Under the pieces are notes generated by a model. That model did not search any database and was not told the DNA's origin. It saw only the letters and a list, made by a program, of their open reading frames with translations. The translations under genes and the position numbers were made by a program. 64,000 nt of DNA from contig JAKAUN010000002.1 of NCBI GenBank assembly GCA_021817605.1, forward strand, positions 3,676 through 67,675. The letters are read 5' to 3'. This document shows, piece after piece, positions 14,490 through 53,111 of this stretch. The stretch is from Thermoplasmata archaeon (lineage in GTDB: Archaea > Thermoplasmatota > Thermoplasmata > Lutacidiplasmatales > UBA184). Every line of letters starts with the position of its first letter. The stretch's first letter is position 1.

Positions 14490-15911
14490 TCAGAACCCCC
14501 GCTCGAGGATCGAGACGGTCACCGACGAGCCGGTACCGGCGTGGCTGTGGATGGCTCCGCGCTTGGCCCCGGCGATCTGGAGCGTGCCGTCGCCGAAGTG
14601 CTTGTCCACCGTCCCTTGCAGCTGCCAGAGCGCGAAGACGGCCTGCATGAGCCCCGTGGCGCCGACCGGGTGCCCGCAGGCGATGAGCCCGCCGGAAGGG
14701 TTCACGGGGATCGTCCCGGCCTTGGGCACCTCGAGCCCGTAGTCGAGCCCCTTGAGGAACGGCGCTCCGGAGAGGGTGAAGTCGTAGCCTTCGCCGTAAC
14801 GGCAGAGCCCGAGGTCCTCGTAGGTCTGGATCTCGCTCGAGGCGTAGGCGTCGTGCAGCTCGACAAAGTCGAGCTCCTTGATCGGGTTGACGATCCCCGC
14901 CATCCGGTAGGCCTCGAGGCCCGCCGCGCGCCCCGCGCGGAAGGAATGCACACCGGGATAGGAGAGCCCGGCATAGTCGTTCTCGGTCTCGTGGGGGAAC
15001 CGCGGCACCTTGCCGAACGGTCGGTCGGCGAGACGCATCGTGTCGGTGCCGCAGCCGACCCCCGTGACCCGGACCGGGTGATCGGTGAACTCGCGGGCCC
15101 GCGACTCGTCGCAGAGGACCGCGACCGCGGCCCCGTCCGACATCGTGCAGATCTGCTCGCGGGTGAGCGGATAGCTGATCATCTCCGAGGCGAGGACGTC
15201 CTCGACGGTGAGCCGCTTCGGATACTGGGCGTAGGGGTTGTACAGGGCGTTGAGGTGGTTCTTCACCGAGACCCAGCTCATGATCCGCTGGCCCTCGGCG
15301 ATCGCGCGGCGCTGCGCCTCGCGCTCGTCGGTGATCCCGGCGAACTTGCCCCGGCGCAGGTACTCGTAGATGTGCCGGACGACCATGAGCGCGTAGTAGC
15401 CGGTGTAGAAGCCGCCGAGGGGGAAGTCGAAGTTCGTGTCGGAGGCGAGGGCGATGAACTCGTTGCCCTTCCAGGTCGCCACCCGGCTCATCGTCTCGTA
15501 GCCGGCAGCGAGGCAGACGTCCATCCGTCCGCTCGCCACGGCCTCGTAGGCGGCCTGGAAGCACTCGCCGCCGGTCGCTCCGCCCCACTCGATACGGACC
15601 GAACCCTTCGGGTTGAGCCCGAGGTAGTCCTGGACCATGCTCGCCGCCTTGAGCTGCCGGGAGAAATGGTCGGAGAAGTAGGAGATCCGCGAGCCGTCGA
15701 TCCGGTCCCTCGTCAGGTTCGGGGTGTCCTTGAGGGCGTAGTCGTAGGCTTTCTTCACCATCAGGCGGAAGTCCATCCCCGGATGGGCCTTGGCGAACTT
15801 CGTCACCCCGCCCGTAACGAGGTAGACCTTCCTCCCGGTCGACGCATGGGGACTTTCCGGATCGCGCCGCGACTCGGGGCGACGCTCCGGCGATGACGCT
15901 GTGGCGGACAT
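14490..15911 (-). CDS. Thiolase-like protein (SCP-x/Ltp-type, DUF35-partnered)
   Basis: Thiolase C-terminal motif NPSGGLIACGHPVGATGL. The N-terminal region carries GGATGGEC instead of the classic CASG nucleophile motif. 473 aa. Confidence 0.7.
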   Translation of the reverse strand: MSATASSPERRPESRRDPESPHASTGRKVYLVTGGVTKFAKAHPGMDFRLMVKKAYDYALKDTPNLTRDRIDGSRISYFSDHFSRQLKAASMVQDYLGLNPKGSVRIEWGGATGGECFQAAYEAVASGRMDVCLAAGYETMSRVATWKGNEFIALASDTNFDFPLGGFYTGYYALMVVRHIYEYLRRGKFAGITDEREAQRRAIAEGQRIMSWVSVKNHLNALYNPYAQYPKRLTVEDVLASEMISYPLTREQICTMSDGAAVAVLCDESRAREFTDHPVRVTGVGCGTDTMRLADRPFGKVPRFPHETENDYAGLSYPGVHSFRAGRAAGLEAYRMAGIVNPIKELDFVELHDAYASSEIQTYEDLGLCRYGEGYDFTLSGAPFLKGLDYGLEVPKAGTIPVNPSGGLIACGHPVGATGLMQAVFALWQLQGTVDKHFGDGTLQIAGAKRGAIHSHAGTGSSVTVSILERGF

Positions 15912-16013
15912 CTTGACGCTCCGGCGCGCGCAGACGGGTCCCCTTCATAACATGCGCACGGCGCGCTCCCGGCCGGGGCGAGACGTTTTGCCGCGGGGGC
16001 GCTGCCCTCGGCG

Positions 16014-17498: not shown

Positions 17499-17987
17499 CT
17501 ACGGAACCTCCCCGCGCCGACGGGAGCGGCGCCGCTCCTCGGTCCTCCGTCGCCCCTCCTCGAACATGGCGCGCTCCTCCTCCGTGAGGGGGTGAAGCGG
17601 CGGAACCGCGGTCGGGCGGCCGTCCCGGTCGACCGCCACCATCGTGACGAACGCGTCGCCGACCTTGCGGACCGGCCCACCCTCGACCGCGCGCGAGGAG
17701 ATGCGCACCACCACTTCCATCGAGGTCCGGCCGGCGAACGTGAGCTCGCCGGAGAAGTCGACGACCTCGCCGACGTGCACCGGAGCGAGGAAATCGACAC
17801 GGTCGAAGGACGCCGTCACGCACGTCCGCTGGGCATGGCGGCTCGCCGCGACGTAGGCGACCCGGTCGACCTCGGCGAGGATCACCCCGCCGAAGACGTT
17901 CCCCATGAAGTTCGCGTCGCTCGGGACCATGAGACGAACGACCGACGCGCGGCTGGCGGCTACGGTTCCCGCGGACGGTTCGCTCAA
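17499..17987 (-). CDS. Acyl-CoA thioesterase (hotdog fold, YciA-like)
   Basis: ...VVRLMVPSDANFMGNVFGGVILAEVDRVAYVAA... is the typical hotdog thioesterase core. Abuts mbf1 with no gap. Confidence 0.7.
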   Translation of the reverse strand: MSEPSAGTVAASRASVVRLMVPSDANFMGNVFGGVILAEVDRVAYVAASRHAQRTCVTASFDRVDFLAPVHVGEVVDFSGELTFAGRTSMEVVVRISSRAVEGGPVRKVGDAFVTMVAVDRDGRPTAVPPLHPLTEEERAMFEEGRRRTEERRRSRRRGEVP

Positions 17988-18346
17988 CGACCCAGATCAC
18001 CCCGGCTTCGGGCAGGGCTCCTCAACGGTCCCCCGCTAAAATTGTTTCCGCGGGACCGGGGGCTTCCCGAACGGACCGCCACGACGACGGCCTCGGAGCG
18101 GCGCGGCCTGGGCGTGGGACGGACACCGCCGGCCCACTCCGAGCCCGAGGGCGAACGCGAGAAGCCCCCGAGCCCGCGCCGGGGCCCCCCGGCGGGAACC
18201 GCCGGAGGACGGGTCGGCCGTCCGGCCGGAATCCGACCCCGTGCCGCGACGGGGCGGGAGAGGGCTCGGGACGTGGGCGCTCTTCTCCGCGCCCGAGCCG
18301 CCGGTCCGAGAGACCGCCGCGCTCCCGGTGAGCCTCCTGGTGACTG

Positions 18347-21300
18347 CTAGGGCACTTCCTTGCGGTCTGCGCACGCCGCGTCCGTGGGACGGTCCTCGTC
18401 TCCCGCGGTCTGCCCCCCAAGAGCAGCTCCCGACCGGGAGGCGCCCGCCGCGGCCAGGAGCAACGTCGTCGCGAGAGCGGCTGCCGCGGGGAGCGCGAGC
18501 CCGGCACCGCCCACCGGCCCGCCGACCGACAACGCGGACGGAAGGCGGGGGAGCGCGGGGGGGTTCATGGTGACGTTGACGAGCTGCCTCGGAGACGGCG
18601 CGTGGAGCACCGCAATCGTTCCGCTGGCAGGGGTCGGGGCCTGCGTGTTCGCGACCCCCACGGTGTAGGTGTAGTTGCCTATCGGCAAGAGGAAACGGAT
18701 GACGCCCTTGCCGGCGAGCTTCGAAAGGGTCGTGGGGAAGGTGAGCGCCGGGGTCGAGCCGGTCGCGATCGTGACCGTCCAGGTCGCCCCAGCCTGTAGG
18801 CCCTTCTCGCGGAAGACGATCGCCTCGGTCAGTAGGCGGAACTTCACCACCTTGGTGAGGGCATGCTTGGGAACGTGGAACCCACCCTTGGCCGGCAGGA
18901 CCTTGTACTCCGCTCCCGGGCCGGCGATCGCGAAGTGGAAGGCGGCGCCGGTCGGTAGGGAGAACGATATCGAGGTGCCGGTCGATGTCTTCGACTGGCC
19001 GGCGGGTCCGCCGTGGGGGAACGCGGGGGTGAGATCAACTCCCCAGGTCGACCCCGCGTACTTCTGGAACTTCGCTAGCGAGCTCTGGTTGAAGGTGACC
19101 GTCTGGAGGTGCCCGAAGATGACCGTCCACGTGGCGACCCCCGACAGCGAGTAGGTCGGGGTCCCGTAGGTCTGGTTGGGCGACCCCGGACCCGCGATCC
19201 TGGCGACCCCCCATCCTGCGGGCCCACTGATGTTGTAGACGAGGGCGCCTGCCGCCTCCGAGAACGAGACCGAACCTGTCGACCCGGTCCCGGTCGTCAC
19301 CGTGGTGTCGCTCCTCACGATCCCGAGAACATCCACCGACCAGAGCGCCCCGGCCGGGAGGTGGAGCTCCCGGAAGCGCAAGGTGTGCCCGAGCGACGCC
19401 GTGAAGACGATGGGGATGTTCACGGGGCTCCCGCTGATCGAGAACTGCCCGCCGTAGAGGCTCGCGGCGAACCCCGGCACGAAGGGGATGGTGAAGTTGT
19501 AGCTGATGTTTTGGGCGTCCATGACCATCGCGTCGGGAGCCGGGGCGGTCGCCGTCACCGTGCCCGGAGGCGTGCCGAAAGCATGGCCGATCGAGAGCGA
19601 CCAATTCGTCCCGTTCGGGAGACCGGTCTCCGTGAACGTGGCGAGTTCGCCGGCTAGCAGGCTCGAGTTCGTCACCGCGTAGGCCTTCGACCAGTAGACG
19701 CTGGTCCCCGCGAACACGTTCTCTTGGAGGGTGATCGTGGTGAGCCCGTTGAAGCAGTCCGTCGCCTCGATGGACGCCGTCGGCACGACACTGGCGGCGC
19801 AGCTAGCCGCCGACTGGCTCGCGCCGTTGGACCCGGACGTGCTGGTCCCGATCAGCACGTTGTGGGCTGCCATCTGCGCCGTCCCGATGAGGAAGATCCC
19901 CGGCGCCCCGCTCGCCGCGTTGTTGACCACGTTCGCATCCACGGTGGTGATTCCCGTGCCTTGCGGCTCGGTCACGATGCCGTAGGCGAGGCTGTCGGTC
20001 ACGGTGTTGCCGTCGATCGTCGCCGGGGCGCCCGCGATGCCCGCGTAGCTCGAGGTGTACATCGCATACAAGATTCCGACCGAGCTCGAGCCCACGTGGT
20101 TCGCCTCGATGTTGCACGTCAAAGCCCCCGGAGCACATCCGGCCCAGATCGCCGACGATTGGGTCTGGGTGAAGTAGGAGCCGCCGGTCTCGAAGGAGAA
20201 GCCGCGGACGGTGTTGCCTGAGACGGTCACCGAGCTACCCCAGACGATGATCCCGCCCTCGGAGGCCGCCGTATCGGCTGCCCCTGGGCCGAGAACCGTG
20301 TTGCCGATCACCGAGAAGGTCCCGGTGGGCTCGACCGACGTTGCGGGGAAGATGTCGCCCGCCTCGATCCCCACCGGGCCGCCGGGGCCGGCCCCGCCGG
20401 CTCCGAGCGTGACCGTCGAGGATTCGATCGTGGCGCTCGTCAGGGCGGGGGCCACGATGATCCCGTTGACAGCGCCCGTTCCGAGCGTCGTCGCGTCCTT
20501 CACCGTGACCCCGTTCGCTTGGACCCCGATCGAGTTGCCGTCGCTCGGGTAGCCCGTCGTGTTGATCGTGAAACTCGCCCCGTTGAGCGTGCTGTCGGCC
20601 CAGTAGTCCGTAACGTTGCCCGCAAAGCTCGAGCGCAACGTGGCGACCGTGCCGGCTACCGACACCAGGCTGGCGTTCGTCGGGATCCCGCTCGAGCTCA
20701 GCACGAGCTGGCCGGGAGCCGCGTGGACGAACACGAGCACCGGCTCGACCACCGCCGAGCCGCTGACGGAGCCAACACCCGGGGTGATCAGCGTGTTCTC
20801 GTACCACCCGCCAATCGCTCCGATGCCGTAGGAGAACGATCCGTTCTGGAGATCGCCGACGATCGACGCCGGCGCGGGAACGTTGGCCGTGGTGCCGTTC
20901 ATCGTCACGGACCAGTCGAGGCCCGGGGTAAGGCCGCTCTCGGACCACGTAACATGCTCCCCACCCCGCTGGAACGAAGTCGCCGGGTAGGTCGGGAAGG
21001 TCGCCGTCCAGTCCGGCGCGTTCGTCTGAGCGAAGATGTTGGCGTTCAGCGTGACCTCGGTCGCGGGGTTGAAGCAATCGGTGGCCTCGACCGACGCGGT
21101 CGGGATCGTCGAAGCGACGCAGCTCGCCTGACCTTGGAGCGCCCCGTTGGTGCCGGTGGTGTTCGTCCCCAGGAAGACGTTCCCGGTCAGCGAGAAGGTC
21201 CCTCCAATGAGATAGGCGCCTGGGGCGCCGCTGGGAGCACTGGCGAACGTGTTGGACTCGACCAGGGAGACTCCCGCGGCCCCGGTGGGCTCAAGGACCA

Positions 21301-22240
21301 TCCCGTAGGCGAGGCTGTTGGTGATGGTGTTGTGCAGGACCACTACGGCCGATTGAGCGATGCTCCCAAAACCGGAGGTCATGAGGGCGTAGACGATGCC
21401 GATGCCGTTCGTGTTGAGGGTGTTGGAGTTGATGTCGCACGCAGGCGCGCCTACGGCGCAGCCGGCGAGGATCCCCACGGACTGGGTGTCCTGGAACCAT
21501 GAGGAGTAGGTATTCGCACCGGAGGTCGTGGTCGTGTCCAGGGAGAATCCGCTCACCGTGCTGTTGGTGATCGCGACGGAGTTTCCGTAGACGACGATCC
21601 CGGTCTCGCCGGCGGTGCCTCCCGCACCAGGACCGACGACCGTGACCGCGTTCACGACGAAGGTGCCCGTGGGCTCGACCGCCGTGGCCGGGAATACGTT
21701 GCCGAGCTGAATCCCCAGAGCCGTCGTGCTTCCGGCGGCGAGCGTCACCGTCGAGCTTTCGATCGTCGCCGAGGAGGTGACGAGCGAAGGCGCCGCAAGG
21801 ATCCCGTCCGTGCTGCCGCTCGAGATCGTCACGAAATTCTGCACCGTGATGCCGTTCGCCTCGAGGCTGAGAGCCGCGAGGTCGGTGGGATACGCCGTCG
21901 CGTTGACCACGCACCCGGAGCCGTCCAGCATACTGTTGGCAAACGAATCAGAAAGGTTGCCCGAGAAGCCCTCGAGCACCGTCACCACCGAACCGTTGAC
22001 GGAGACCGCTGTCGGGTCGCTCGAGACCCCTCCGGCAGAGATGGTGACCGTCCCGAGACTACCGGCGGAGGGGCAGGCGGCCAAGGTGGAGAAGGCAGGC
22101 CCTCCCGGCGCCGATCCGACGGAGGACCCGAGGAAGGGGCCCGCGCCGGCAATCGTGGGGGCAAGGGCGAACCCCACCACCGCGAGGAGGCCGACCAGGG
22201 CCGCCCGGACCACCACGCGTCGAGGGGCGCTCATAGCCAC
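18347..22240 (-). CDS. Large secreted/cell-surface protein (1297 aa): signal peptide, two tandem right-handed beta-helix modules each followed by a beta-sandwich domain, further beta-sandwich repeats, C-terminal membrane anchor
   Basis: N-terminal signal MAMSAPRRVVVRAALVGLLAVVGFALAPTIAGA. Dozens of N-x-S/T sequons. Gly/Thr/Ser/Asn/Val-rich beta-helix-like repeats with conserved TIESSTVTL, FPAT(A/S)VEPTGTF, ASCxAS..PTAS(V/I)EATDCFN. C-terminal hydrophobic stretch LALPAAAALATTLLLAAAGA followed by a charged tail. Confidence 0.75.
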   Translation of the reverse strand: MAMSAPRRVVVRAALVGLLAVVGFALAPTIAGAGPFLGSSVGSAPGGPAFSTLAACPSAGSLGTVTISAGGVSSDPTAVSVNGSVVTVLEGFSGNLSDSFANSMLDGSGCVVNATAYPTDLAALSLEANGITVQNFVTISSGSTDGILAAPSLVTSSATIESSTVTLAAGSTTALGIQLGNVFPATAVEPTGTFVVNAVTVVGPGAGGTAGETGIVVYGNSVAITNSTVSGFSLDTTTTSGANTYSSWFQDTQSVGILAGCAVGAPACDINSNTLNTNGIGIVYALMTSGFGSIAQSAVVVLHNTITNSLAYGMVLEPTGAAGVSLVESNTFASAPSGAPGAYLIGGTFSLTGNVFLGTNTTGTNGALQGQASCVASTIPTASVEATDCFNPATEVTLNANIFAQTNAPDWTATFPTYPATSFQRGGEHVTWSESGLTPGLDWSVTMNGTTANVPAPASIVGDLQNGSFSYGIGAIGGWYENTLITPGVGSVSGSAVVEPVLVFVHAAPGQLVLSSSGIPTNASLVSVAGTVATLRSSFAGNVTDYWADSTLNGASFTINTTGYPSDGNSIGVQANGVTVKDATTLGTGAVNGIIVAPALTSATIESSTVTLGAGGAGPGGPVGIEAGDIFPATSVEPTGTFSVIGNTVLGPGAADTAASEGGIIVWGSSVTVSGNTVRGFSFETGGSYFTQTQSSAIWAGCAPGALTCNIEANHVGSSSVGILYAMYTSSYAGIAGAPATIDGNTVTDSLAYGIVTEPQGTGITTVDANVVNNAASGAPGIFLIGTAQMAAHNVLIGTSTSGSNGASQSAASCAASVVPTASIEATDCFNGLTTITLQENVFAGTSVYWSKAYAVTNSSLLAGELATFTETGLPNGTNWSLSIGHAFGTPPGTVTATAPAPDAMVMDAQNISYNFTIPFVPGFAASLYGGQFSISGSPVNIPIVFTASLGHTLRFRELHLPAGALWSVDVLGIVRSDTTVTTGTGSTGSVSFSEAAGALVYNISGPAGWGVARIAGPGSPNQTYGTPTYSLSGVATWTVIFGHLQTVTFNQSSLAKFQKYAGSTWGVDLTPAFPHGGPAGQSKTSTGTSISFSLPTGAAFHFAIAGPGAEYKVLPAKGGFHVPKHALTKVVKFRLLTEAIVFREKGLQAGATWTVTIATGSTPALTFPTTLSKLAGKGVIRFLLPIGNYTYTVGVANTQAPTPASGTIAVLHAPSPRQLVNVTMNPPALPRLPSALSVGGPVGGAGLALPAAAALATTLLLAAAGASRSGAALGGQTAGDEDRPTDAACADRKEVP
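19370..22009 (-). repeat. Intragenic tandem duplication: two ~440-aa modules (about aa 78-517 and 518-957) of the surface protein
   Basis: Manual alignment of the two halves shows colinear conserved blocks, estimated ~45-55% identity. Examples: GNLSDSF.../GNVTDYW..., TIESSTVTL in both, GFSLDT/GFSFET, TDCFNPATEVTLNANIFAQ/TDCFNGLTTITLQENVFAG, VTWSESGLTPGLDWSVTM/ATFTETGLPNGTNWSLSI. Module boundaries are approximate. Confidence 0.6.
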
Positions 22241-22419
22241 CCCTCGCTTAGGTCGACCCGTTCGAACCGCGCAGAACCGCTTCGGGATTCGGGAGCAAAC
22301 ACCATCTCCGCTACCTTACCTTAGATTTGAGAGGGTCAGCTGAATAAATACCAGTTGCCCCCCGGGCCAAGGACCGGCGGTCGGCGTCCGCTTTTCGGCC
22401 CTCGGGAAGCAACAACGCC

Positions 22420-44202: not shown

Positions 44203-45912
44203 CTAGGTCGACATCCCCGGCGCGCTCTTGAGCGCCCGGATCTTGTAGTACTCGGGGTCGACGATGACCTCGCCGTTGACGCCCATCGTCTCGATCGTCT
44301 TCAGCTTGAGGCCGCCCTGCGACTTCGCCCGCTGCCAGTCGGGGATCGGGATCGAGAACTTCTTCTCGACCTCGGTCCGGTAGATCGGCCCGGAGTTGTA
44401 CGAGCAGAACGGGATGACCCGCCCGTCCGGGACCGCGTAGTGGATGTCGCAGCGCATCAGCCGCTGGATGTCGTAGTCGTAGGCGTCCTGGAAGTGCATG
44501 TTGCCGATGTAGAGCGTCCTCCAGGTGAACTTCGCGACGGCCTCCTTGTTGCCCTCGGTGAAGATCGAGGCGATCAGCCGCACGCAGTTCTTCTCCGTCA
44601 CGCCCTCCGGCGCCTTGGTGAAGTCGAAGTACTTCGCGACGTCGTGGAGGAGCCGCGCCCCGGCGACCACCGTCCGCACGCGCGAGAACCGCGCGTCGCG
44701 GTACTTCTCGATCATCCCCTCGACGTTCTCGAAGAAGCCGTCGACGTCCATGAACCGCGGCAGCGGGGTGATCTTCTCCCCGTCCTTGGAGACGAAGGCG
44801 AAGGTCGCGCAGCCGCAGCCCGGGTGCGTCGTGAGGGTCATCTTCTCCTCGCCGTGGATGATCGAGGCGAGCTCGGAGATCGGCGCGACCGACGGCACGG
44901 GGAAGAAGTCGGACTTGTCGAAGGGCCCGTCGGTGCAGAGGATGCGGACGAGGTCGGACTGGGTGAACCGCATCTGGAAGCGGTCCTTGTCGGGGATGCG
45001 GGCGGTCAGGGCGACCGGCTGGAAGTTGACGCCGCGCACGACGTCAAGGTTGTCGATCGCGAACTTGACCGTCGGCCAGATCTCCTTCTCGTTGAACCCG
45101 CCGACCAGCGTCGGGACGAGCACGACGGAGAGAGGCTTGTCCGGCTTACCCGCGGCGAGCTCGGAGGCCGGCGAGTGGGTCTCGCGGGCCGCCTGGATCG
45201 CCTTCTGCTTCACCTTGAACAGCGGCACACCACGGACCTTGCGGTAGATCTCGTCGTCCAGACCGTCGAACTGCAGGTAGAGGGTGTGCAGGCCCGCGTC
45301 CCGGGAGGCCTGGGCGAAGCCGGGCTCGTTGGCCACGCGGATCCCGTTGGTCGCGACCTGGATCTGCTTGAAGCCGAGGTCGCGGGACATCGACACCGCG
45401 TCTAGGAACAGCGGAGAGAGGGTCGGCTCGCCTCCGGAGAACTGGACCGCGACGGTGCCGACCGGCTTCTGCTCGCGCAGGGTCTTCAGCATGAAGTAGA
45501 TCTGCTCGCGGGTGGGCTCGAAGACGTAGCCTGCGGCGTTCGCGTTCGCGAAGCAGACAGGGCACTTGAGATTGCAGCGGTTGGTCAGGTCCACCAGGGC
45601 GAGCCCGGTGTGCGACTTGTGGTGGCTGCACATCCCGCAGGTGGTGGGGCAGCCGCGGAACTTGTCGTAGTAGGGGTTCTCGTAGCCGACCCCGTCGTGG
45701 GCATAGACCTCCATCCGCAGGTAGAAGTCCACGTCGTTGGAGATGATGTCCCAGAAGTAGCCGTGGGCTCGGCAGGTCTTCTCCATGATGACCCGGCCGT
45801 CTTTCTCGCGGACGATGGCGGGAATGACCTTGATGCACTCCGGGCAGACCGAGGCGGTCTTCCGGGGGAGGCCCCGCGGGGCCTGGAACTCCTTCATCAC
45901 TCGTGCCGGCAT
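44203..45912 (-). CDS. Radical SAM protein with N-terminal zinc-ribbon/rubredoxin-like motif and C-terminal auxiliary Cys clusters; Tes (GDGT/MAS tetraether lipid synthase)-like
   Basis: CNLKCPVCF (CxxxCxxC). N-terminal CPECIK...TCRAHG. C-terminal Cys pairs HPGCGCATF, RLMRCDIHY, FCSYN. 569 aa. The Tes assignment rests on domain architecture and lipid-gene neighbourhood and is not verified. Confidence 0.8.
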   Translation of the reverse strand: MPARVMKEFQAPRGLPRKTASVCPECIKVIPAIVREKDGRVIMEKTCRAHGYFWDIISNDVDFYLRMEVYAHDGVGYENPYYDKFRGCPTTCGMCSHHKSHTGLALVDLTNRCNLKCPVCFANANAAGYVFEPTREQIYFMLKTLREQKPVGTVAVQFSGGEPTLSPLFLDAVSMSRDLGFKQIQVATNGIRVANEPGFAQASRDAGLHTLYLQFDGLDDEIYRKVRGVPLFKVKQKAIQAARETHSPASELAAGKPDKPLSVVLVPTLVGGFNEKEIWPTVKFAIDNLDVVRGVNFQPVALTARIPDKDRFQMRFTQSDLVRILCTDGPFDKSDFFPVPSVAPISELASIIHGEEKMTLTTHPGCGCATFAFVSKDGEKITPLPRFMDVDGFFENVEGMIEKYRDARFSRVRTVVAGARLLHDVAKYFDFTKAPEGVTEKNCVRLIASIFTEGNKEAVAKFTWRTLYIGNMHFQDAYDYDIQRLMRCDIHYAVPDGRVIPFCSYNSGPIYRTEVEKKFSIPIPDWQRAKSQGGLKLKTIETMGVNGEVIVDPEYYKIRALKSAPGMST

Positions 45913-47118: not shown

Positions 47119-48141
47119 TCAGCCCGGGGTCGGCTGGCGAACGACGGCCTTGCGCCCGTAGCGCCAGGACCCCTCGATGGCGTAGAGGCGCCGCAGCCTC
47201 GTGTCGACCCGGCCGCCTAGCCGGATCTCACCCGGCTCCGTATCGGTGAGGGCCACCGTGGCTCGGAGACCGTCGGCGAGCGCGACGAGCGCCACCCCGT
47301 AGGGCCCGACAGCGGCGACCTGCTCGTCGAACTCGGTAGGCTGGCCTCCGGGGCCGATCCAGGTGAGCGCGACGACCTCGAGCCCGTCTCGGGGGAGCGA
47401 CTCCGCGGTGAGCGTGTCCGCCCGGCCGCAGCGGCGGCAGCGACCCCGGGAAGGGAAGCTGAGTGTCGAGCAGGAGCGGCATCTCTCGCCGGAGAACCTC
47501 CAGCGGCTGGCGACGGCCTCGAGGTAGCTCGCCCGCGGGACGTAGGCGCCCTCGGAGACGGCCGCCGACGGGAACGCCGGCGGTCCCTGGGGGGGCGGAG
47601 GACGTCCCACGGCAGGGCTAGCCGCCCAGTCGCCCACCCAAGCTTTCGCCGCGGCTGCGTCGGCCCGTTGGGCGATCGGGACGAGCGCGGCGAGCTCCTG
47701 CCCCGGGAGGGGAGCTGTCCCCGCGGGGAGAAGGCTCGCCGTCGAGGAAGGGAGCTCGTCGACCAGGAGGGCAAAGGCCCCCTCGCCCGGGGGCGGGACG
47801 GCCGACGCGGGGGAGCCCGAGGCCTCCTCCACGGCACCGACCAGCAGTTCCGGTCCGGCTCCGTGGGAGGCACGTTCGAGGGCGTCGGCAAGGGGGGAGG
47901 CGGTCGGGTCGGGCGCGGGAACCACCGTCACGCTCTCGCCGAGGATCCCGGCAAGCAGCTCCGGAGGGAGGGCCCGTGCGGCGCCGACTTCCCGGATCGT
48001 CCAGGCGGGTGGCCTCGAGGTGCTGCCGGCTAGTAGCCGCTCAAGCGCCGTCGCCACCAGCGTGAAGGCGTCCTCGTCCCAGGAGCGGACGCGGCGCCGG
48101 CCGTCGGTGCGGGTGGGGAGGTAGGCGGCGGCCCGCAGCAC
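47119..48141 (-). CDS. DUF35 Zn-ribbon/OB-fold protein preceded in-frame by a degenerate HMG-CoA-synthase-like segment
   Basis: C-terminal CRSCSTLSFPSRGRCRRCG (CxxC...CxxC) plus OB fold. N-terminal AAAYLPTRTDGRRRVRSWDEDAFTLVATALERL and GEGAFALLV resemble the HMGCS N-terminus and oxyanion-loop region, but the catalytic Cys position reads PDPTASPL. ATG 48141 is 14 nt below the thiolase stop. A shorter DUF35-only product from an internal start cannot be excluded. Confidence 0.6.
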   Translation of the reverse strand: MLRAAAYLPTRTDGRRRVRSWDEDAFTLVATALERLLAGSTSRPPAWTIREVGAARALPPELLAGILGESVTVVPAPDPTASPLADALERASHGAGPELLVGAVEEASGSPASAVPPPGEGAFALLVDELPSSTASLLPAGTAPLPGQELAALVPIAQRADAAAAKAWVGDWAASPAVGRPPPPQGPPAFPSAAVSEGAYVPRASYLEAVASRWRFSGERCRSCSTLSFPSRGRCRRCGRADTLTAESLPRDGLEVVALTWIGPGGQPTEFDEQVAAVGPYGVALVALADGLRATVALTDTEPGEIRLGGRVDTRLRRLYAIEGSWRYGRKAVVRQPTPG

Positions 48142-48157
48142 CCCGCGCGTCGTCCTC

Positions 48158-49321
48158 TCACCCCACCGAGTAGATCGTCACGGCGCAGGTCGCCCCGGCC
48201 CCGCCGACATTGTGCGTGAGCGCGCTTCGGGCCCCCGGGACCTGGCGGGGGCCGGCGCTCCCGCGGAGCTGGTGGAAGACCTCGTAGGCCTGAGAGACGC
48301 CCGTCGCTCCGATCGGATGGCCCTTGGCCTTGAGCCCCCCGTCGGGGTTGACAGGGATCCGGCCGTCGCGGCGCGTCGCCCCCGAGAGGGTGAGGGCTCC
48401 GGCCTCCCCACGGCCGGCGAAGCCGAGGTCCTCGAGGGCGAGGAGCTCGGCGATCGTGAAGCAGTCATGGACCTCGAGGAAGGAGATCGACCCACGCTCG
48501 GCCCCGGCGGAGCGGAAGGCGGTCTCGGCGGCCCGTCGGCTCGCCTCGAAGCCGGTGAGCTCGGCCCGCTCCTGCACGGCGAGGCGGTCGGAGGCCGCCC
48601 CGATCCCGTCGACGTAGACCGGCGTGTCGGTGTACCGTTTCGCCGTTTCGGTCGAGGCGAGGAGGACGGCGGCGGCCCCGTCGCTCACCGGACAGCAGTC
48701 GTAGAGCCCGAGCGGATCGGCGACCCGGGGGCTGCGCAGGGCCTGTTCGCGCTCGATGCGCTTCTGGAAGTGCGCGTTCGGGTTGAGCGCGCCGTTCTCG
48801 TGGTTCTTGACCGCGACCTCGGCGAGGGCCTCGCGCCCGAGCCGGTAGCGGTCGAGATAGGCCGAGGCGAGAAGCCCGTAGACCCCGGCGAAGGTGAGCC
48901 CGGCCTGGCGCTCCCACTCGGTGTCGCCCGAGACACCGAGCCAGAAGCGGCGGCGGGCGTTGGAGACGTCGGTCATCTTCTCGAGGCCCGCGACGAGGAC
49001 GAGGTCGGCCGACCCCGAGGCGATGGCGTGGACCGCCTCGTGAAGCGCAAAGCCGCCGGACGCGCAGGCGTTCTCGACCCGGACGCAGGCCAGCCCGGGG
49101 ACGCCGAGCTCCTCGGCGAGCAGGGCGGAGGAGTTGCCGATCTGCCAGCCGCCGAAGCCCAGCGACGCGAGGTAGCTGCGGTCCACCGCCGACGGCTCGA
49201 AAGCGCGGTCGACGCTGCCGAGCGCCTGGCGCACCGCGCTCCCCAGAAGGGCCCGGGGTCCCTCGGGAAGGACGCCGAACCGGGTGTGCCCCGCCCCGAC
49301 GATCGCCGCGCGATGCACCAC
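48158..49321 (-). CDS. Acetyl-CoA C-acetyltransferase (archaeal thiolase)
   Basis: MVHRAAIVGAGHTRFG... Catalytic ENACASGG. C-terminal NVGGAGATCAVTIY. 387 aa. Confidence 0.85.
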   Translation of the reverse strand: MVHRAAIVGAGHTRFGVLPEGPRALLGSAVRQALGSVDRAFEPSAVDRSYLASLGFGGWQIGNSSALLAEELGVPGLACVRVENACASGGFALHEAVHAIASGSADLVLVAGLEKMTDVSNARRRFWLGVSGDTEWERQAGLTFAGVYGLLASAYLDRYRLGREALAEVAVKNHENGALNPNAHFQKRIEREQALRSPRVADPLGLYDCCPVSDGAAAVLLASTETAKRYTDTPVYVDGIGAASDRLAVQERAELTGFEASRRAAETAFRSAGAERGSISFLEVHDCFTIAELLALEDLGFAGRGEAGALTLSGATRRDGRIPVNPDGGLKAKGHPIGATGVSQAYEVFHQLRGSAGPRQVPGARSALTHNVGGAGATCAVTIYSVG

Positions 49322-49387
49322 GTCTTCCCCGTTGCACGAACCGTCTTAACGCCTCAGTCGCTGCGCCGGCCGGGCAGCGGGGCCAGG

Positions 49388-49963
49388 GTGGGCGACGATC
49401 GTCCGTTGGTCGTGGGAGTCACGGGAGCGAGCGGAGCCCCGATCGCCGTGCGGGTCCTCGAGGCCCTGCAAGGGGCCGGCGTGCCGGTCGCCCTCGTCCT
49501 CTCGGAGGCCGGGCGGGCGGTCCTCCGGGCCGAGACCGACCTCGAGCCGCTCGCCGTCGAGCACCTCGCGGGCGTCACCTACCGCGACGACGACATCGCC
49601 GCCCCGATCGCCAGCGGCTCGCGCGCCACCCGAGGGATGGTCGTGGTTCCCTGCTCGGCGTCGACCGCGGCGAAGATCGCCGTCGGGCTCGCCGACACCC
49701 TGCTGACCCGGACCGCCTTCGTCCACCTCAAGGAGCGACGGCCGCTCGTCCTGGTTCCCCGCGAGACGCCGATGCCCAGTGTCCTCCTGAGGCACCTCGC
49801 CGCGCTCAGCGAGATGGGGGCCGTCGTCCTGCCGGTGAGTCCCCCTTACTACCTGCGGCCGAGGTCGCTCGCGGACCTCACCGACTACATGGCCGGCAAG
49901 GTCCTCGACCACGTCGGAGTGCCGCACCAGCTCTACCGTGGCTGGCGCGAGCCCGAGGAGTAG
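49388..49963 (+). CDS. ubiX: Flavin prenyltransferase UbiX (prenyl-FMN synthase)
   Basis: From GTG 49388: MGDDRPLVVGVTGASGAPIAVRVLEAL... and ...VVVPCSASTAAKIAVGLADTLLTR... match the UbiX/Pad1 flavoprotein. About 191 aa. The upstream track frame is antisense of the thiolase. Confidence 0.75.
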   Translation: MGDDRPLVVGVTGASGAPIAVRVLEALQGAGVPVALVLSEAGRAVLRAETDLEPLAVEHLAGVTYRDDDIAAPIASGSRATRGMVVVPCSASTAAKIAVGLADTLLTRTAFVHLKERRPLVLVPRETPMPSVLLRHLAALSEMGAVVLPVSPPYYLRPRSLADLTDYMAGKVLDHVGVPHQLYRGWREPEE

Positions 49964-51490: not shown

Positions 51491-51545
51491 CCGGCCACGG
51501 TGCCCTCTCGCTATGTAGGGCTCACCGCTCGGGCCTGCAGGTCGG

Positions 51546-53111
51546 ATGGCGCGGATCCGAAGAGGCTCCACAGTCCGGGAGGCGGACCTCCTTTCGCGAG
51601 CCAAGGCGCTGAGGTCGAGCGTCGAGCCGCTGCTCCCGCGGCTCACCGCCGAGTGCCCGACCGAGCGGTTCGACCGTCTTCGGCAGGAGCTCGAGGAGGT
51701 CCGGGCCGCACGCGAGGACGACAAGCGGCTCACGCGTCTCTCCCGCTGGGGGGATCCTCTCGCCCGGGCCTACGCCGGCCTGCTCAAGTTCGCCCTCGAA
51801 CCGACGGCGCCCGCGGTGGTCGCCTTCGAGATCCCGGGTGGCGAGGTCTCCTTCGCGCCGCTCGCCCGCACCGACCGGGAGGCAGAGGTCGCGGTGCAAC
51901 AGTCGGACGACCCGGGACGCCTGCTCCTCGGCTACCTCACCTGGGGGAAACGCGGCTTTCACTTCTTCGCGACCCGCAAGACGCTCTGGTGCACGGGACG
52001 CTCGCCGACCCCTCCTGAGGAGTTCCTCGCGGAACGGATCGCCGAGCAGCCGTACCGCCTCATCGAGAACGCTGCGGAACGACGGTTCGACTGCCCGCAC
52101 CTTTCCAGCGGAGAGCCTCGACCCTACCTCGAGGTCGGCTGGGTCGGCGCGGACCGGCGGTTCCGGGTCTGCCGCCGCTGCGCGAAGGAGGGCCGTCAGC
52201 TGCTCTCGAGCCTGTCGGAAGGGGCGCTCGGGCCGGACCCCGTCGCGGAGTTCCCCGTCGCGGCCTCGCTCAACGTCCGCTGCTCCGGCGGGCAGGCGTG
52301 CGTGCACGCCGTCCTCCCGGAGCTGCCCCGCCCGCTCCGCCAGAGCTACGAGCGAGGGCGCCTTTCGGACGCGCAGCTGATCGACGAGTACCTCCTCGAG
52401 CTCAGGCCGCGTCTCGAGCGGGTGAGCCGGCCGACGTTCGTTGCCGGCGGGGTCTGCTACGGCTCCGATCTCTCGGGCTTTCTCCAGGCACTAGATCCCA
52501 CCCCGGCCGAACGGGCCGCGCTCGAGACGGTCCTCGGCGGACGCCCCGGGCTCTTTGAGGTGGACGAGCCGTCCGCGAGCCGGGCGCTCGAGAAGCTCTG
52601 GGCGTCGCACGCGGAGGAGATCGTCTCGGCGATCGTCCACGACCCGAAGGAGGCCCGACGGCTCGTCGACCAAGCCCGCGGCGCCCCGGGGCGCGTCGCG
52701 GAGATCCTCAAGCGCGCCCAGCGCCAGAGCGAGACCCGGGAGCTTCTGGGGACCTTGCCACAGTACGCTTCGCTCGCCCCCGAGGCCGCGTGGGCGGACC
52801 GGATCGCCCGCGTCCATCGCACCGGAGGGGATGCGGCCGCCGAGCGCGCCGTCACCGAGTCGCTCCCCCGCGAGGGCAAGACCCGCGGGCTCGCCTACGG
52901 GATGCTCCTCGCCATCGGGCGGACCGGCCCGCATGCCTGGCAGTTCTCCCCGACGGAGAAGGAGTTCGGCCAGTCGCTCGAGCCGCGGGCCCGTGCGCTC
53001 CTCGGCTCGACGCCGGAGGGCTACCACGAGGCGCTCGGCGCCCTCCTTACCGCCGCCGGCGTCGCGGGGTGGGGAACTCTGGCGGCTCCCAACGTTCCGC
53101 GCGAAGGGTAG
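51546..53111 (+). CDS. Hypothetical 521-aa protein with scattered Cys/His motifs
   Basis: No recognisable domain. Cys motifs CPHLSSG, RVCRRCAKEG, VRCSGGQACVHAV. Non-repetitive composition argues it is real. Confidence 0.5.
   Translation: MARIRRGSTVREADLLSRAKALRSSVEPLLPRLTAECPTERFDRLRQELEEVRAAREDDKRLTRLSRWGDPLARAYAGLLKFALEPTAPAVVAFEIPGGEVSFAPLARTDREAEVAVQQSDDPGRLLLGYLTWGKRGFHFFATRKTLWCTGRSPTPPEEFLAERIAEQPYRLIENAAERRFDCPHLSSGEPRPYLEVGWVGADRRFRVCRRCAKEGRQLLSSLSEGALGPDPVAEFPVAASLNVRCSGGQACVHAVLPELPRPLRQSYERGRLSDAQLIDEYLLELRPRLERVSRPTFVAGGVCYGSDLSGFLQALDPTPAERAALETVLGGRPGLFEVDEPSASRALEKLWASHAEEIVSAIVHDPKEARRLVDQARGAPGRVAEILKRAQRQSETRELLGTLPQYASLAPEAAWADRIARVHRTGGDAAAERAVTESLPREGKTRGLAYGMLLAIGRTGPHAWQFSPTEKEFGQSLEPRARALLGSTPEGYHEALGALLTAAGVAGWGTLAAPNVPREG

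What the first reader, a model, noticed from the sequence alone, without database searches (positions are those of the whole stretch)
47119..48141. Catalytically dead HMG-CoA-synthase-like N-terminal half fused to a DUF35 scaffold protein
The DUF35 Zn-ribbon/OB-fold module is preceded in frame by ~200 aa. The first ~40 and a middle block resemble the HMGCS N-terminus (AAAYLPTRTDGRRRVRSWDEDAFTLVATAL; GEGAFALLV). The region where the catalytic Cys should lie is Pro/Ala-rich (VVPAPDPTASPLADAL), and the segment is far shorter than a real HMGCS. The ATG sits 14 nt after the thiolase stop, so the long form is probably made. This looks like either a decaying HMGCS gene remnant captured into the DUF35 ORF or a pseudo-enzyme extension of the thiolase/HMGCS/DUF35 complex scaffold.
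Basis: partly seen in the sequence, partly recalled or inferred. Interest (0 to 1): 0.5.

Follow-up and report, generated by a model that had tools for sequence, protein, structure and literature searches.

The report
Dead half-HMG-CoA-synthase fused to thiolase scaffold
This archaeal gene fuses the catalytically dead front half of an HMG-CoA synthase to the small DUF35 scaffold protein and sits beside a live thiolase, and related genomes also carry the reverse pairing (live synthase beside a dead thiolase), so the first two enzymes of lipid-precursor synthesis appear to have been divided between two half-dead modules.

Summary
ORF 47119-48141 (-) encodes 340 aa and starts at GTG, not ATG, 16 nt after the thiolase stop. 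Residues ~206-335 are a DUF35 Zn-ribbon/OB module.

Residues 1-135 are homologous to the N-terminal half of HMG-CoA synthase:
- The family profile hits only HMGCS in the PDB (E=5e-5).
- hhalign against archaeal HMGCS gives 91.5% probability.

The HMGS-like part is dead. There is no cysteine before residue 221, the Glu is replaced, and the His/Asn half is absent.

It is not decaying. Full-length homologues occur in at least 129 Thermoplasmata species genomes, and dN/dS for the N-domain is 0.15-0.43.

The adjacent thiolase keeps all catalytic motifs in 72/72 loci. Three MAGs that carry the fusion also carry a canonical HMGCS-thiolase-DUF35 operon. In that operon the thiolase has lost its Cys and His yet is under purifying selection.

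Best reading: a non-catalytic scaffold subunit for the live thiolase. Biochemistry is untested. This is a new variant of the known inactive HMGS-DUF35 fusions.

The parts
47119..48141 (-). Whole gene: pseudo-HMGS(N-half)::DUF35 fusion, 340 aa, GTG start, TGA stop at 47119-47121
   Evidence: ORF; 355 homologues at E<=0.001; the 120 listed cover 90-100% of the query; 129 Thermoplasmata genomes. AF2 pLDDT 91.5, pTM 0.91.
47737..48141 (-). Residues 1-135: N-terminal half of an HMG-CoA-synthase (thiolase-superfamily) fold, catalytically dead. The invariant DEDxxT motif (D22 E23 D24 T27) is shared with archaeal HMGCS.
47608..47736 (-). Residues 136-178: a variable Pro/Ala-rich stretch, then helices 149-158 and 162-165 and strand 168-170 (WVGDW). 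This looks like the remnant of the last helix and strand of the lost C-terminal half of the HMGS fold.
   Evidence: secondary structure; alignment with 366-500 aa relatives, whose xWxGxW strand ends a complete C-half; the correspondence is inferred from that alignment; relaxed selection, dN/dS 0.10-1.02.
47560..47607 (-). Residues 179-194: Pro-rich flexible linker
   Evidence: pLDDT 58-80 in blocks 181-200; no conserved columns.
47497..47559 (-). Residues 195-215: nearly invariant VSEGAYVP motif and the N-terminal helix of the DUF35 module, leading into SRWRF
   Evidence: G198 and A199 invariant; S196, P202 and S212 at least 90% conserved; R213 and W214 invariant; helix 203-215.
47398..47496 (-). 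Residues 216-248: DUF35 rubredoxin-like zinc ribbon (C221, C224, C235, C238)
   Evidence: PF12172, residues 215-242; four invariant Cys; 6esq_E.
47140..47397 (-). Residues 249-334: DUF35 OB-fold domain (GGQPTEFD and EGxWRYGRK family motifs)
48153..48157 (-). GAGGA Shine-Dalgarno-like motif 11-15 nt upstream of the GTG, inside the 16-nt gap after the thiolase stop
   Evidence: sequence read directly. Function as a ribosome-binding site is inferred.
48158..49321 (-). Partner gene: catalytically intact SCP2/archaeal-type thiolase, 387 aa (NACASGG nucleophile Cys, EVHDCFT, KGHPIGATG)
   Evidence: Thiolase_N/C; PRK06064, 448 bits; 7yvy_A 265 bits, 6esq_A 237 bits; motifs kept in 72/72 syntenic loci, 66-81% identity.
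49370..49963 (+). Divergently transcribed UbiX flavin prenyltransferase, a conserved neighbour (start approximate)
   Evidence: TIGR00421, 203 bits; same position in relatives.
44203..45912 (-). Tetraether lipid synthase Tes (radical SAM), a conserved neighbour about 1.2 kb downstream
   Evidence: NF045702, 569 bits, cut-off 450; same position in relatives.

Best explanation
SHOWN:
- The gene encodes a two-part non-enzyme. One part is a DUF35 zinc-ribbon/OB-fold module of the kind that clamps thiolase-superfamily enzymes together. In front of it sits the N-terminal half of an HMG-CoA-synthase fold that has lost every catalytic residue.
- The gene is tightly linked to a thiolase that keeps all of its catalytic motifs. 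This arrangement is conserved across a large clade of high-GC soil and peat Thermoplasmata, which includes proteins named Lutacidiplasmatales.
- Positional orthologues in the same UbiX/thiolase/.../Tes neighbourhood are 478-500 aa and still carry a complete, dead HMGS fold. The 340-aa form is therefore the product of internal deletion of most of the C-terminal half.
- Three MAGs that carry the fusion also carry a canonical HMGCS-thiolase-DUF35 operon. There the HMGCS is intact and the thiolase has lost its nucleophilic Cys and its GHP His, yet stays under purifying selection.

INFERRED:
- The fusion protein is the structural (beta) subunit of the adjacent live thiolase. DUF35 would bind the thiolase as in the solved complexes. 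The pseudo-HMGS half would occupy the surface that a real HMGCS occupies there, stabilising the thiolase and possibly completing its CoA-binding surface.
- This live thiolase is then the most likely source of acetoacetyl-CoA for the separate HMGCS/dead-thiolase/DUF35 module.
- On this reading, an ancestral channelling complex was duplicated and each copy kept one live enzyme and one dead partner.
For: - Homology and fold of the N-part.
- No Cys in residues 1-220, Glu position replaced, His/Asn half missing.
- DUF35 identity.
- Conservation and purifying selection.
- Live partner thiolase.
- Canonical operon in the same MAGs: DATGZQ01, DASPQC01, JBKQPJ01.
- Dead operon thiolase, EAACASGG -> EGGGASGA and GHx -> GRP, although it is the closer orthologue of 6esq_A (345 vs 237 bits). 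Its dN/dS has a median of 0.20.
- Precedent: a bacterial ACAT plus fused inactive HMGS-DUF35 complex is stable and still cleaves acetoacetyl-CoA (PMC12960953).
- Lipid-related conserved neighbours Tes and UbiX.
Against: - No biochemical, proteomic or complex-structure evidence exists. Binding of the fusion to the thiolase is inferred from gene linkage and from solved complexes of homologues.
- The canonical operon was shown in three related MAGs, not in the genome this window comes from.
- MAG-level co-occurrence can be affected by binning errors.
- Splitting thiolase and HMGCS into different complexes would abolish the shared-CoA-site channelling that is thought to be the purpose of the archaeal complex. 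The pathway logic is therefore unexplained.
- The window holds another thiolase-family gene (14490-15944), and the genome may hold more. The claim that this is 'the' acetoacetyl-CoA thiolase is not secure.
- The characterised bacterial analogue only performs thiolysis, which fits a degradative role equally well.
Confidence: 0.5

Rival explanations
1. Degradative module. The live thiolase plus pseudo-HMGS::DUF35 is a beta-oxidation or ketone-body type thiolase that cleaves acetoacetyl-CoA or longer 3-ketoacyl-CoAs, and it has nothing to do with feeding the mevalonate pathway. HMGCS would get acetoacetyl-CoA from beta-oxidation or from another thiolase.
For: - The only characterised ACAT/inactive-HMGS-DUF35 complex (P. 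fluorescens) cleaves acetoacetyl-CoA but makes neither acetoacetyl-CoA nor HMG-CoA.
- A full-length dead HMGS::DUF35 relative (P0341) follows a thiolase next to an enoyl-CoA hydratase gene.
- Lutacidiplasmatales are predicted to use fatty acids (PMC9287336).
- Archaeal thiolase/DUF35 pairs occur in several copies with different roles (bioRxiv 10.1101/2024.07.05.601840).
Against: - The conserved neighbours are Tes and UbiX (lipid and prenyl metabolism), not beta-oxidation genes.
- The canonical operon thiolase is dead, so some other thiolase must supply acetoacetyl-CoA.
- The window thiolase's best matches among solved structures are archaeal acetyl-CoA acetyltransferases (7yvy_A, 6esq_A), and its best NCBIfam models include the M. 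thermolithotrophicus acetyl-CoA acetyltransferase.
Confidence: 0.25
2. Super-complex. The two half-dead modules co-assemble, for example through live/dead thiolase heterodimers or through the pseudo-HMGS half docking on a real HMGCS. Live thiolase and live HMGCS would then still sit in one particle and channelling would be kept.
For: - Both dead partners are conserved under purifying selection, as expected for adaptor subunits.
- Thiolase-superfamily enzymes commonly form heterodimers with dead paralogues (PqsBC and KS-CLF appear among the fold hits).
- The DEDxxT motif is invariant in both real archaeal HMGCS and the pseudo-HMGS, consistent with a shared interface.
Against: - The two modules are at separate loci and sit on different contigs in all three MAGs.
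- Live and dead thiolases are only about 42% identical.
- Nothing was modelled or measured about hetero-assembly.
Confidence: 0.15
3. Decaying remnant or mis-annotated start. The upstream ~200 codons are a dying HMGCS fragment, and the real product is a normal-size DUF35 started internally.
For: - The mid region (residues 136-194) is Pro/Ala-rich, poorly conserved and in part nearly neutral (dN/dS up to 1.0).
- High-GC genomes keep long spurious open frames.
Against: - Full-length conservation in hundreds of proteins and at least 129 genomes.
- dN/dS of 0.15-0.43 for residues 1-135.
- Invariant residues D22, E23, D24, E34 and G68 in the 49-sequence alignment, with T27 at least 90% conserved there and invariant in the 32-sequence N-domain alignment.
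- A confident compact AF2 model with pTM 0.91.
- Start codons of homologues align within a few residues of the window's GTG.
- Gene callers on independent assemblies call the same 340-aa product.
Confidence: 0.04
4. New function of the half-domain. The retained N-half binds CoA, an acyl-CoA or another ligand, or carries a new catalytic site built from its invariant acidic residues. It would act as a regulator or as an enzyme of another kind.
For: - Invariant D22, E23, D24 and E34, and nearly invariant R17, Y7 and P9.
- The N-half of KAS III/HMGCS folds carries most contacts to the nucleotide part of CoA (general knowledge of the fold, not tested here).
Against: - The same DEDxxT motif is invariant in real archaeal HMGCS, so it is more likely structural or interfacial than a new active site.
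- There is no Cys, and only one His (H93), in the window protein's N-domain.
- No match to any other family was found.
Confidence: 0.06

Closest known systems
PfACAT/HMGS-DUF35 complex of Pseudomonas fluorescens and the ~1,000 similar bacterial loci (Nat Commun 2026, PMC12960953)
   Same: - One polypeptide fuses an HMGS-like domain lacking the E-C-H-N tetrad to DUF35.
- It is encoded next to a thiolase that keeps Cys, HDxF and GHx.
   Different: - The bacterial protein has a full-length HMGS domain. The window protein keeps only the N-terminal half plus one helix and strand.
- The window gene is archaeal, sits with Tes and UbiX, and co-occurs with a canonical operon whose thiolase is dead.
- Sequence relationship to the bacterial proteins was not tested directly.
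[quoted passage not shown]
   Same: - All three building blocks are homologous.
- DUF35 is the best PDB match of the C-terminal module (E=1e-16).
- The thiolase is related to 6esq_A (237 bits).
   Different: - There the three proteins are separate, both enzymes are active, and the intermediate is channelled through a shared CoA site.
- Here the HMGS part is half-sized, dead and fused to DUF35.
- The true orthologue of the 6ESQ thiolase lies at another locus and is itself dead.
PhlACB (Pseudomonas protegens) and MucABC (Streptococcus) acyltransferases
   Different: - They are three separate full-length subunits.
- Their thiolase subunit has lost HDxF and was repurposed for Friedel-Crafts acetylation in secondary metabolism.
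- The window thiolase keeps HDCF and GHP, and no PKS/NRPS context is present.
Haloarchaeal two-subunit beta-ketothiolases (PhaA and BktB alpha/beta of Haloferax mediterranei). Cited from my own knowledge of Hou et al. 2013; the paper is not in the held library.
   Same: A thiolase catalytic subunit that needs a co-encoded OB-fold (DUF35) subunit.
   Different: As I recall it (from memory, not checked here), the beta subunit there is a plain DUF35 without an HMGS-derived extension. No sequence comparison was made.
Dead partners in thiolase-superfamily heteromers (KS-CLF of type II PKS, PqsB in PqsBC)
   Same: A catalytically dead, sometimes shortened thiolase-fold paralogue kept as an obligatory structural partner of a live one. 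PqsB and CLF-type chains appear among the fold matches.
   Different: Those partners keep both halves of the fold and form a pseudo-homodimer with the live subunit. Here only half a fold remains, and it is fused to a different scaffold domain.

Membership tests
HMG-CoA synthase (active enzyme; Pfam PF01154/PF08540, NCBIfam HMGCS models) | Matches the family HMMs above the curated thresholds | tested here: not met
   No HMGCS model reported by Pfam or NCBIfam even at E<=1.
HMG-CoA synthase (active enzyme; Pfam PF01154/PF08540, NCBIfam HMGCS models) | Nucleophilic Cys in the (F/N)AC(K/Y)(A/G)GT motif | tested here: not met
   There is no cysteine in residues 1-220. The Cys motif aligns to a gapped, non-conserved Pro/Ala stretch.
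HMG-CoA synthase (active enzyme; Pfam PF01154/PF08540, NCBIfam HMGCS models) | Catalytic Glu (GSES), His (FHQPN) and Asn (GNTY) | tested here: not met
   The Glu position aligns to A55 and is variable in the family. The segment that carries His and Asn is absent.
HMG-CoA synthase (active enzyme; Pfam PF01154/PF08540, NCBIfam HMGCS models) | Complete two-half thiolase-superfamily fold (~350 aa) | tested here: not met
HMG-CoA synthase superfamily (descent from HMGCS) | Statistically supported remote homology of residues 1-135 to the HMGCS N-terminal domain, with HMGCS as best match | tested here: met
   - Profile vs PDB: only HMGCS at E<0.1, best E=5e-5.
- Genuine HMGCS P0359 at E=2.6e-4 in 1.84 billion proteins.
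- hhalign 91.5% probability, E=8.6e-7.
DUF35 / ChsH2-type scaffold (PF12172 + PF01796) | Four-Cys rubredoxin-like zinc ribbon followed by an OB fold | tested here: met
DUF35 / ChsH2-type scaffold (PF12172 + PF01796) | Pfam gathering score reached | tested here: inconclusive
   The window sequence alone is just below threshold (24.7 vs 27.1 bits; 20.5 vs 23.2 bits). The family profile hits 6esq_E at E=1e-16, and many homologues carry precomputed PF12172/PF01796 hits.
DUF35 / ChsH2-type scaffold (PF12172 + PF01796) | Encoded next to a thiolase-superfamily partner | tested here: met
   The thiolase is immediately upstream in the window and in the syntenic loci examined.
Inactive HMGS-DUF35 fusion of ACAT/HMGS-DUF35 complexes (PMC12960953) | HMGS-like domain without the E-C-H-N tetrad fused N-terminally to DUF35 | tested here: met
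Inactive HMGS-DUF35 fusion of ACAT/HMGS-DUF35 complexes (PMC12960953) | Partner ACAT retains the catalytic Cys, HDxF and GHx | tested here: met
   NACASGG, EVHDCFT and KGHPIGATG, or conservative variants, in 72/72 loci.
Inactive HMGS-DUF35 fusion of ACAT/HMGS-DUF35 complexes (PMC12960953) | Full-length HMGS domain | tested here: not met
   Only the N-half is retained in the window protein. The feature is met by its 420-500 aa relatives.
Inactive HMGS-DUF35 fusion of ACAT/HMGS-DUF35 complexes (PMC12960953) | Complex formation with the ACAT and thiolysis-only activity | not testable with these tools
   Needs protein biochemistry.
Canonical archaeal thiolase/HMGCS/DUF35 mevalonate module | Active HMGCS gene adjacent to thiolase and a stand-alone DUF35 | tested here: not met
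   - No HMGCS in the window or within +-10 kb in 80 related loci (probe validated).
- The canonical operon lies at another locus in the same MAGs.

The most novel reading that the evidence does not exclude
A whole clade of Thermoplasmata has taken the archaeal thiolase/HMGCS/DUF35 channelling machine apart by duplication and reciprocal inactivation. One module keeps a live HMGCS with a dead thiolase. The other keeps a live thiolase with a dead HMGS that has shrunk to half a fold and is fused to DUF35. The dead subunits would survive as obligatory structural adaptors, either holding two separate particles together or linking them into one super-complex. That would be a natural example of complementary pseudo-enzyme subfunctionalisation in an essential pathway, and it would show that half a thiolase fold can be a stable, selected domain.
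Probability: 0.35. Interest if true: 0.8.

Novelty: new variant of a known kind. Interest (0 to 1): 0.62.

Why it matters
The thiolase/HMGCS/DUF35 complex is thought to exist in archaea so that the unfavourable condensation of two acetyl-CoA is pulled forward by the next enzyme through a shared CoA site.

A large and abundant soil and peat lineage appears to keep both halves of that machine only as live-plus-dead pairs at two loci. This raises three questions:
- whether channelling is dispensable in these organisms;
- where their HMGCS gets acetoacetyl-CoA;
- what the dead subunits are selected for.

The case also offers a graded natural series, from a full-length dead HMGS, through intermediates, to half a fold. 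That series could be used to study how a pseudo-enzyme is pared down to the part needed for assembly.

There is a practical point as well. These proteins are annotated as 'uncharacterized OB-fold protein', as 'scaffold protein', or occasionally as 'HMG-CoA synthase'. The dead operon gene is a full-length thiolase-family member by sequence, so similarity-based annotation would score it as a thiolase. Automated pathway reconstructions for these archaea could therefore assign the thiolase step to the wrong gene.

Tried and rejected
- Single-sequence searches of the 340-aa protein (Pfam, NCBIfam, phmmer vs PDB) see only the DUF35 part. The HMGCS link needs a family profile.
- hhalign of the N-domain profile against one HMGCS sequence was weak (3.5% probability). 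It became significant only against an HMGCS alignment.
- No HMGCS was found in the window. Pfam was run on 30 window ORFs in three calls.
- No HMGCS was found within +-10 kb of the fusion in 80 genomes.
- A homologue search seeded with the M. thermolithotrophicus HMGCS returned only methanogen proteins in its top 120. The clade's HMGCS was instead reached with a GC-rich-codon DNA pattern for the FHQPN...GN.Y motifs, followed by a second protein search.
- No contig carries both loci.
- BLAST of genes around the HMGCS loci against genes around the fusion loci found no shared neighbourhood.
- The AFDB50 fold library was unavailable.
- The Vogeli et al. 2018 paper (PMC5879682) is not held.
- A paper search for haloarchaeal ketothiolase OB-fold subunits found nothing.
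- The Lutacidiplasmatales genome paper does not discuss mevalonate or lipid genes.
- I considered a thiolase-fusion triple fusion because of 730-750 aa open frames in some loci. I rejected it: the thiolase is in a different frame, and the long frames are a high-GC artefact (checked against the gene calls).
Full report
**1. Observation.** The ORF lies on the minus strand at 47119..48141 and encodes 340 aa.
- It starts with GTG (48139-48141), not ATG.
- The start is 16 nt after the TGA of the upstream thiolase gene (48158..49321).
- A GAGGA motif lies 11-15 nt upstream of the GTG.
- No other in-frame start is available upstream.
- For this single sequence, Pfam, NCBIfam and phmmer against the PDB recognise only the C-terminal DUF35 module. 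That module comprises a zinc ribbon at residues 215-242 and an OB fold at 276-314. Its best PDB match is the DUF35 chain of the Methanothermococcus thermolithotrophicus thiolase/HMGCS complex, 6esq_E.

**2. The long form is a conserved protein family.**
- A search of 5.8 billion proteins found 355 homologues. The 120 listed cover 90-100% of the query, are 317-369 aa long and 42-59% identical. Those that carry names come from Thermoplasmata MAGs, one of them named Candidatus Lutacidiplasmatales.
- A scan of one genome per species found the gene in 129 genomes. Among the 80 loci kept, all but one are titled Thermoplasmata or Thermoplasmatales.
- The 49-sequence alignment has invariant residues in the N-terminal part (D22, E23, D24, E34, G68). 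Nearly invariant positions include Y7, P9, R17, T27, G53, A124 and the GDW of WVGDW.
- Pairwise dN/dS in seven moderately diverged pairs is 0.15-0.43 for residues 1-135 and 0.08-0.27 for the DUF35 part. Residues 136-178 are more relaxed, at 0.10-1.02.
- The 'decaying remnant' and 'internal start' readings are therefore rejected.

**3. What the N-terminal part is.**
- A profile of the full-length family hits DUF35 (6esq_E, E=1e-16). With positions 8-135 it also hits HMG-CoA synthases: Myxococcus xanthus MvaS at E=4e-5 and Enterococcus faecalis HMGCS at E=0.02.
- A profile of residues 1-178 alone hits nothing but HMGCS in the PDB at E<0.1.
- In an exhaustive HMMER search of 1.84 billion representatives, that profile still reaches a genuine HMGCS at E=2.6e-4. 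This protein, P0359, matches PF01154 and PF08540.
- hhalign against an alignment of archaeal HMGCS gives 91.5% probability, E=8.6e-7. Query columns 3-137 align to HMGCS 2-170.
- AlphaFold2 with the family alignment gives a confident single-body model (pLDDT 91.5, pTM 0.91). Only the Pro-rich stretch 181-200 has low confidence.
- Foldseek ranks DUF35 chains first, followed by HMGCS and KAS III.
- Residues 1-135 are thus one half of the thiolase-superfamily fold, and their closest sequence relatives are HMGCS.

**4. The domain is catalytically dead.**
- The window protein has no cysteine before C221, the first zinc ligand, so the superfamily's nucleophile is absent.
- In the profile and MAFFT alignments, the GSES/GTE glutamate aligns to A55, in a variable column.
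- The FACKAGT / ACYGGT motif aligns to a gapped, non-conserved Pro/Ala stretch.
- The segment that carries FHQPN (His) and GNTY (Asn) does not exist.
- What is conserved is the DEDxxT motif. It is invariant in the fusion family and also invariant in archaeal HMGCS as D49 E50 D51 T54. This points to a structural or interface role rather than a new active site. That is an inference.

**5. A reduction series.** The exhaustive search also returned relatives of 366-396 aa and 408-500 aa, and full-length HMGS-like::DUF35 proteins of 464-496 aa. All share the VSEGAY...SRWRF...(G/A)QPTEFD...WRYG(R/L)K DUF35 module or variants of it.
- In a joint alignment, the full-length forms still show recognisable but mutated versions of all four catalytic motifs. 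Examples are TTNPP, TQSIAG, HQPD and LGDAGS.
- The 420-500 aa forms have a complete second half with the motifs obliterated.
- The 340-aa forms lack that half except for a helix and the xWxGxW strand.
- An AF2 model of a 439-aa member (pLDDT 86, pTM 0.88) shows two thiolase-like halves plus DUF35.
- Two long-form genes (P0298, 500 aa; P0371, 478 aa) sit in the same neighbourhood as the window gene: GATase, two small genes, UbiX, then divergently thiolase, fusion..., Tes (compare). They are positional orthologues. The window form is best explained by internal deletion within an already dead, already fused HMGS domain.
- One long-form cluster member is deposited as 'hydroxymethylglutaryl-CoA synthase 1, partial' from a mine-drainage metagenome.

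**6. The partner and the neighbourhood.**
- The upstream gene is a 387-aa archaeal/SCP2-type thiolase. Its best solved relatives are Pyrococcus furiosus thiolase 7yvy_A (265 bits) and the complex thiolase 6esq_A (237 bits).
- In 72 of 72 syntenic loci it keeps the nucleophile motif NACASGG, the motif EVHDCFT and the motif KGHPIGATG, or conservative variants. It is 66-81% identical to the window protein across the clade.
- UbiX flavin prenyltransferase is divergently transcribed next to it.
- The tetraether lipid synthase Tes lies about 1.2 kb beyond the fusion gene. Both positions are conserved in relatives.

**7. Where the real HMGCS is.**
- No HMGCS is in the window.
- None is within 10 kb of the fusion in 80 related genomes. 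The probe was the M. thermolithotrophicus HMGCS sequence, verified against 6esq_I.
- A DNA pattern for the FHQPN...GN.Y motifs in GC-rich codons recovered about 119 archaeal HMGCS loci from metagenomes. Nearly all have the order HMGCS, thiolase, stand-alone DUF35.
- Ten high-GC peat and soil loci form a tight cluster at 82-92% identity.
- A protein search seeded with one of these returned 350-aa HMGCS proteins. Nearly all of those that carry an organism name are from 'Thermoplasmata archaeon'.
- Three of these HMGCS genes lie in the same MAG assemblies as fusion genes:
  - DATGZQ010000032.1 with DATGZQ010000039.1;
  - DASPQC010000044.1 with DASPQC010000029.1;
  - JBKQPJ010000006.1 with JBKQPJ010000017.1.
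- The lineage therefore has a canonical operon as well, and the window pair is a second, paralogous module.

**8. An unexpected reciprocal pattern.**
- In every thiolase sequence recovered from the canonical operons of that Thermoplasmata cluster (about 20 loci), the HMGCS has all four catalytic motifs where examined. The operon thiolase, however, reads EGGGASGA where 6esq_A has EAACASGS.
- It also reads G(R/Q/L)P where the His of the GHx motif should be, and mostly HDAY (with variants) where 6esq_A has HDCF.
- The alignment to 6esq_A is unambiguous (345 bits). This makes the dead protein a closer relative of the complex thiolase than the live window thiolase is.
- The dead thiolase is under purifying selection. 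Across 55 pairs, median identity is 79% and median dN/dS is 0.20.
- In these organisms, one locus encodes live HMGCS, dead thiolase and DUF35. The other, the window type, encodes live thiolase and dead half-HMGS::DUF35.
- Other, unidentified archaeal groups in the same metagenome set also have operon thiolases without the Cys and His. I did not follow this up.

**9. How it most likely works.**
- Shown: the domain identities, the loss of catalytic residues, the conservation, the gene linkage, the series of orthologues, and the co-occurrence with the reciprocal operon.
- Inferred: the fusion protein is the non-catalytic subunit of the adjacent thiolase. DUF35 would bind as in 6ESQ, PhlACB and MucABC. 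The pseudo-HMGS half would fill the place of HMGCS on the thiolase. This thiolase would then supply, or alternatively cleave, acetoacetyl-CoA.
- The bacterial PfACAT/HMGS-DUF35 complex shows that such an assembly is stable and catalyses thiolysis but makes no HMG-CoA (PMC12960953).
- It is open whether the archaeal module works biosynthetically, degradatively, or as part of a super-complex with the HMGCS module.
- Separating the two live enzymes would abolish the shared-CoA-site channelling described for the methanogen complex. I have no explanation for that.

**10. Comparison and novelty.**
- Inactive HMGS fused to DUF35 beside an active ACAT is known in bacteria, and dead HMGS-like subunits are known in PhlACB and MucABC.
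- Three things are new here:
  - the archaeal lineage and its lipid-gene context;
  - the reduction of the pseudo-enzyme to half a fold, documented by a graded series of positional orthologues;
  - the co-occurrence with a canonical operon whose thiolase is the dead partner.
- I found no paper in the held library that describes this.
- I file it as a new variant of a known kind.

**11. Limits.**
- There is no experimental evidence.
- The canonical operon was not shown for the window's own genome.
- Co-occurrence is at MAG level.
- Complex geometry was not modelled.
- The taxonomy of the long-form carriers and of the other groups with dead operon thiolases was not resolved.

Noticed in passing
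L210:5057-6226 (DATGZQ010000032.1); also L089, L106, L136, L141, L152, L159, L161, L166, L199, L205-L215: In the canonical HMGCS-thiolase-DUF35 operon of the same Thermoplasmata clade, the thiolase has lost the nucleophilic Cys (EGGGASGA) and the His of the GHx motif (GRP/GQP/GLP). It is nevertheless the closer relative of the 6esq_A complex thiolase and is under purifying selection (median dN/dS 0.20).
   Followed up: yes
L087, L091, L108, L114, L118, L120, L124, L125, L127, L153 (GGGACGA...RGQP/RGYP); L093, L098, L101, L119, L138, L140, L165, L204 and others (AAGASGG/ASGASGG...RGD/N/E/F): Other, taxonomically unidentified archaeal HMGCS operons from metagenomes also carry thiolase genes that lack the catalytic Cys and His. 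Dead operon thiolases may therefore be widespread beyond this clade.
   Followed up: no
window 44203-45912 (-) and 49370-49963 (+): Tetraether lipid synthase Tes (NF045702, 569 bits) and UbiX flavin prenyltransferase flank the thiolase/fusion pair. The arrangement is conserved in short-form and long-form relatives (L003, L223, L225).
   Followed up: partly
window 14490-15944 (-): A second thiolase-family gene (up to 484 codons in the open frame; PRK06365-like, 621 bits, just under its 695-bit cut-off) has no DUF35 gene anywhere else in the window. An acyl-CoA thioesterase-like gene lies at 17499-17996 (-).
   Followed up: no
window 18347-22315 (-): An open frame of about 1,320 codons with coding-like GC3 (0.88) has no Pfam match at E<=1e-4.
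   Followed up: no
window 51519-53111 (+); L003:5081-6622: A protein of about 513-530 aa without any Pfam match is conserved in the same position (between GATase and the TP_methylase/Usp/Kdp genes) in a related 1-Mb contig.
   Followed up: no
P0323 cluster (member P0492, EQD72160.1): A fragment of a 500-aa long-form dead HMGS::DUF35 protein from a mine-drainage metagenome is deposited as 'hydroxymethylglutaryl-CoA synthase 1, partial'. This annotation would mislead pathway reconstruction.
   Followed up: partly
L228:3832-6395 (JBQTJL010000099.1): A full-length dead HMGS-like::DUF35 protein (P0341, 464 aa) overlaps the stop of an upstream thiolase and lies next to an enoyl-CoA hydratase gene. 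This suggests that some members of the wider family sit in a beta-oxidation-like context.
   Followed up: no
L210:6237-6725: The stand-alone DUF35 of the canonical operon in this clade is 162-163 aa. It is longer than the 130-aa M. thermolithotrophicus protein because of a Pro/Ser-rich C-terminal tail.
   Followed up: no
L048 (DAIDCO010000004.1): One carrier of the fusion gene is titled 'bacterium isolate clean3188', whereas the other 79 loci kept are titled Thermoplasmata or Thermoplasmatales. This is probably a mislabelled MAG.
   Followed up: no
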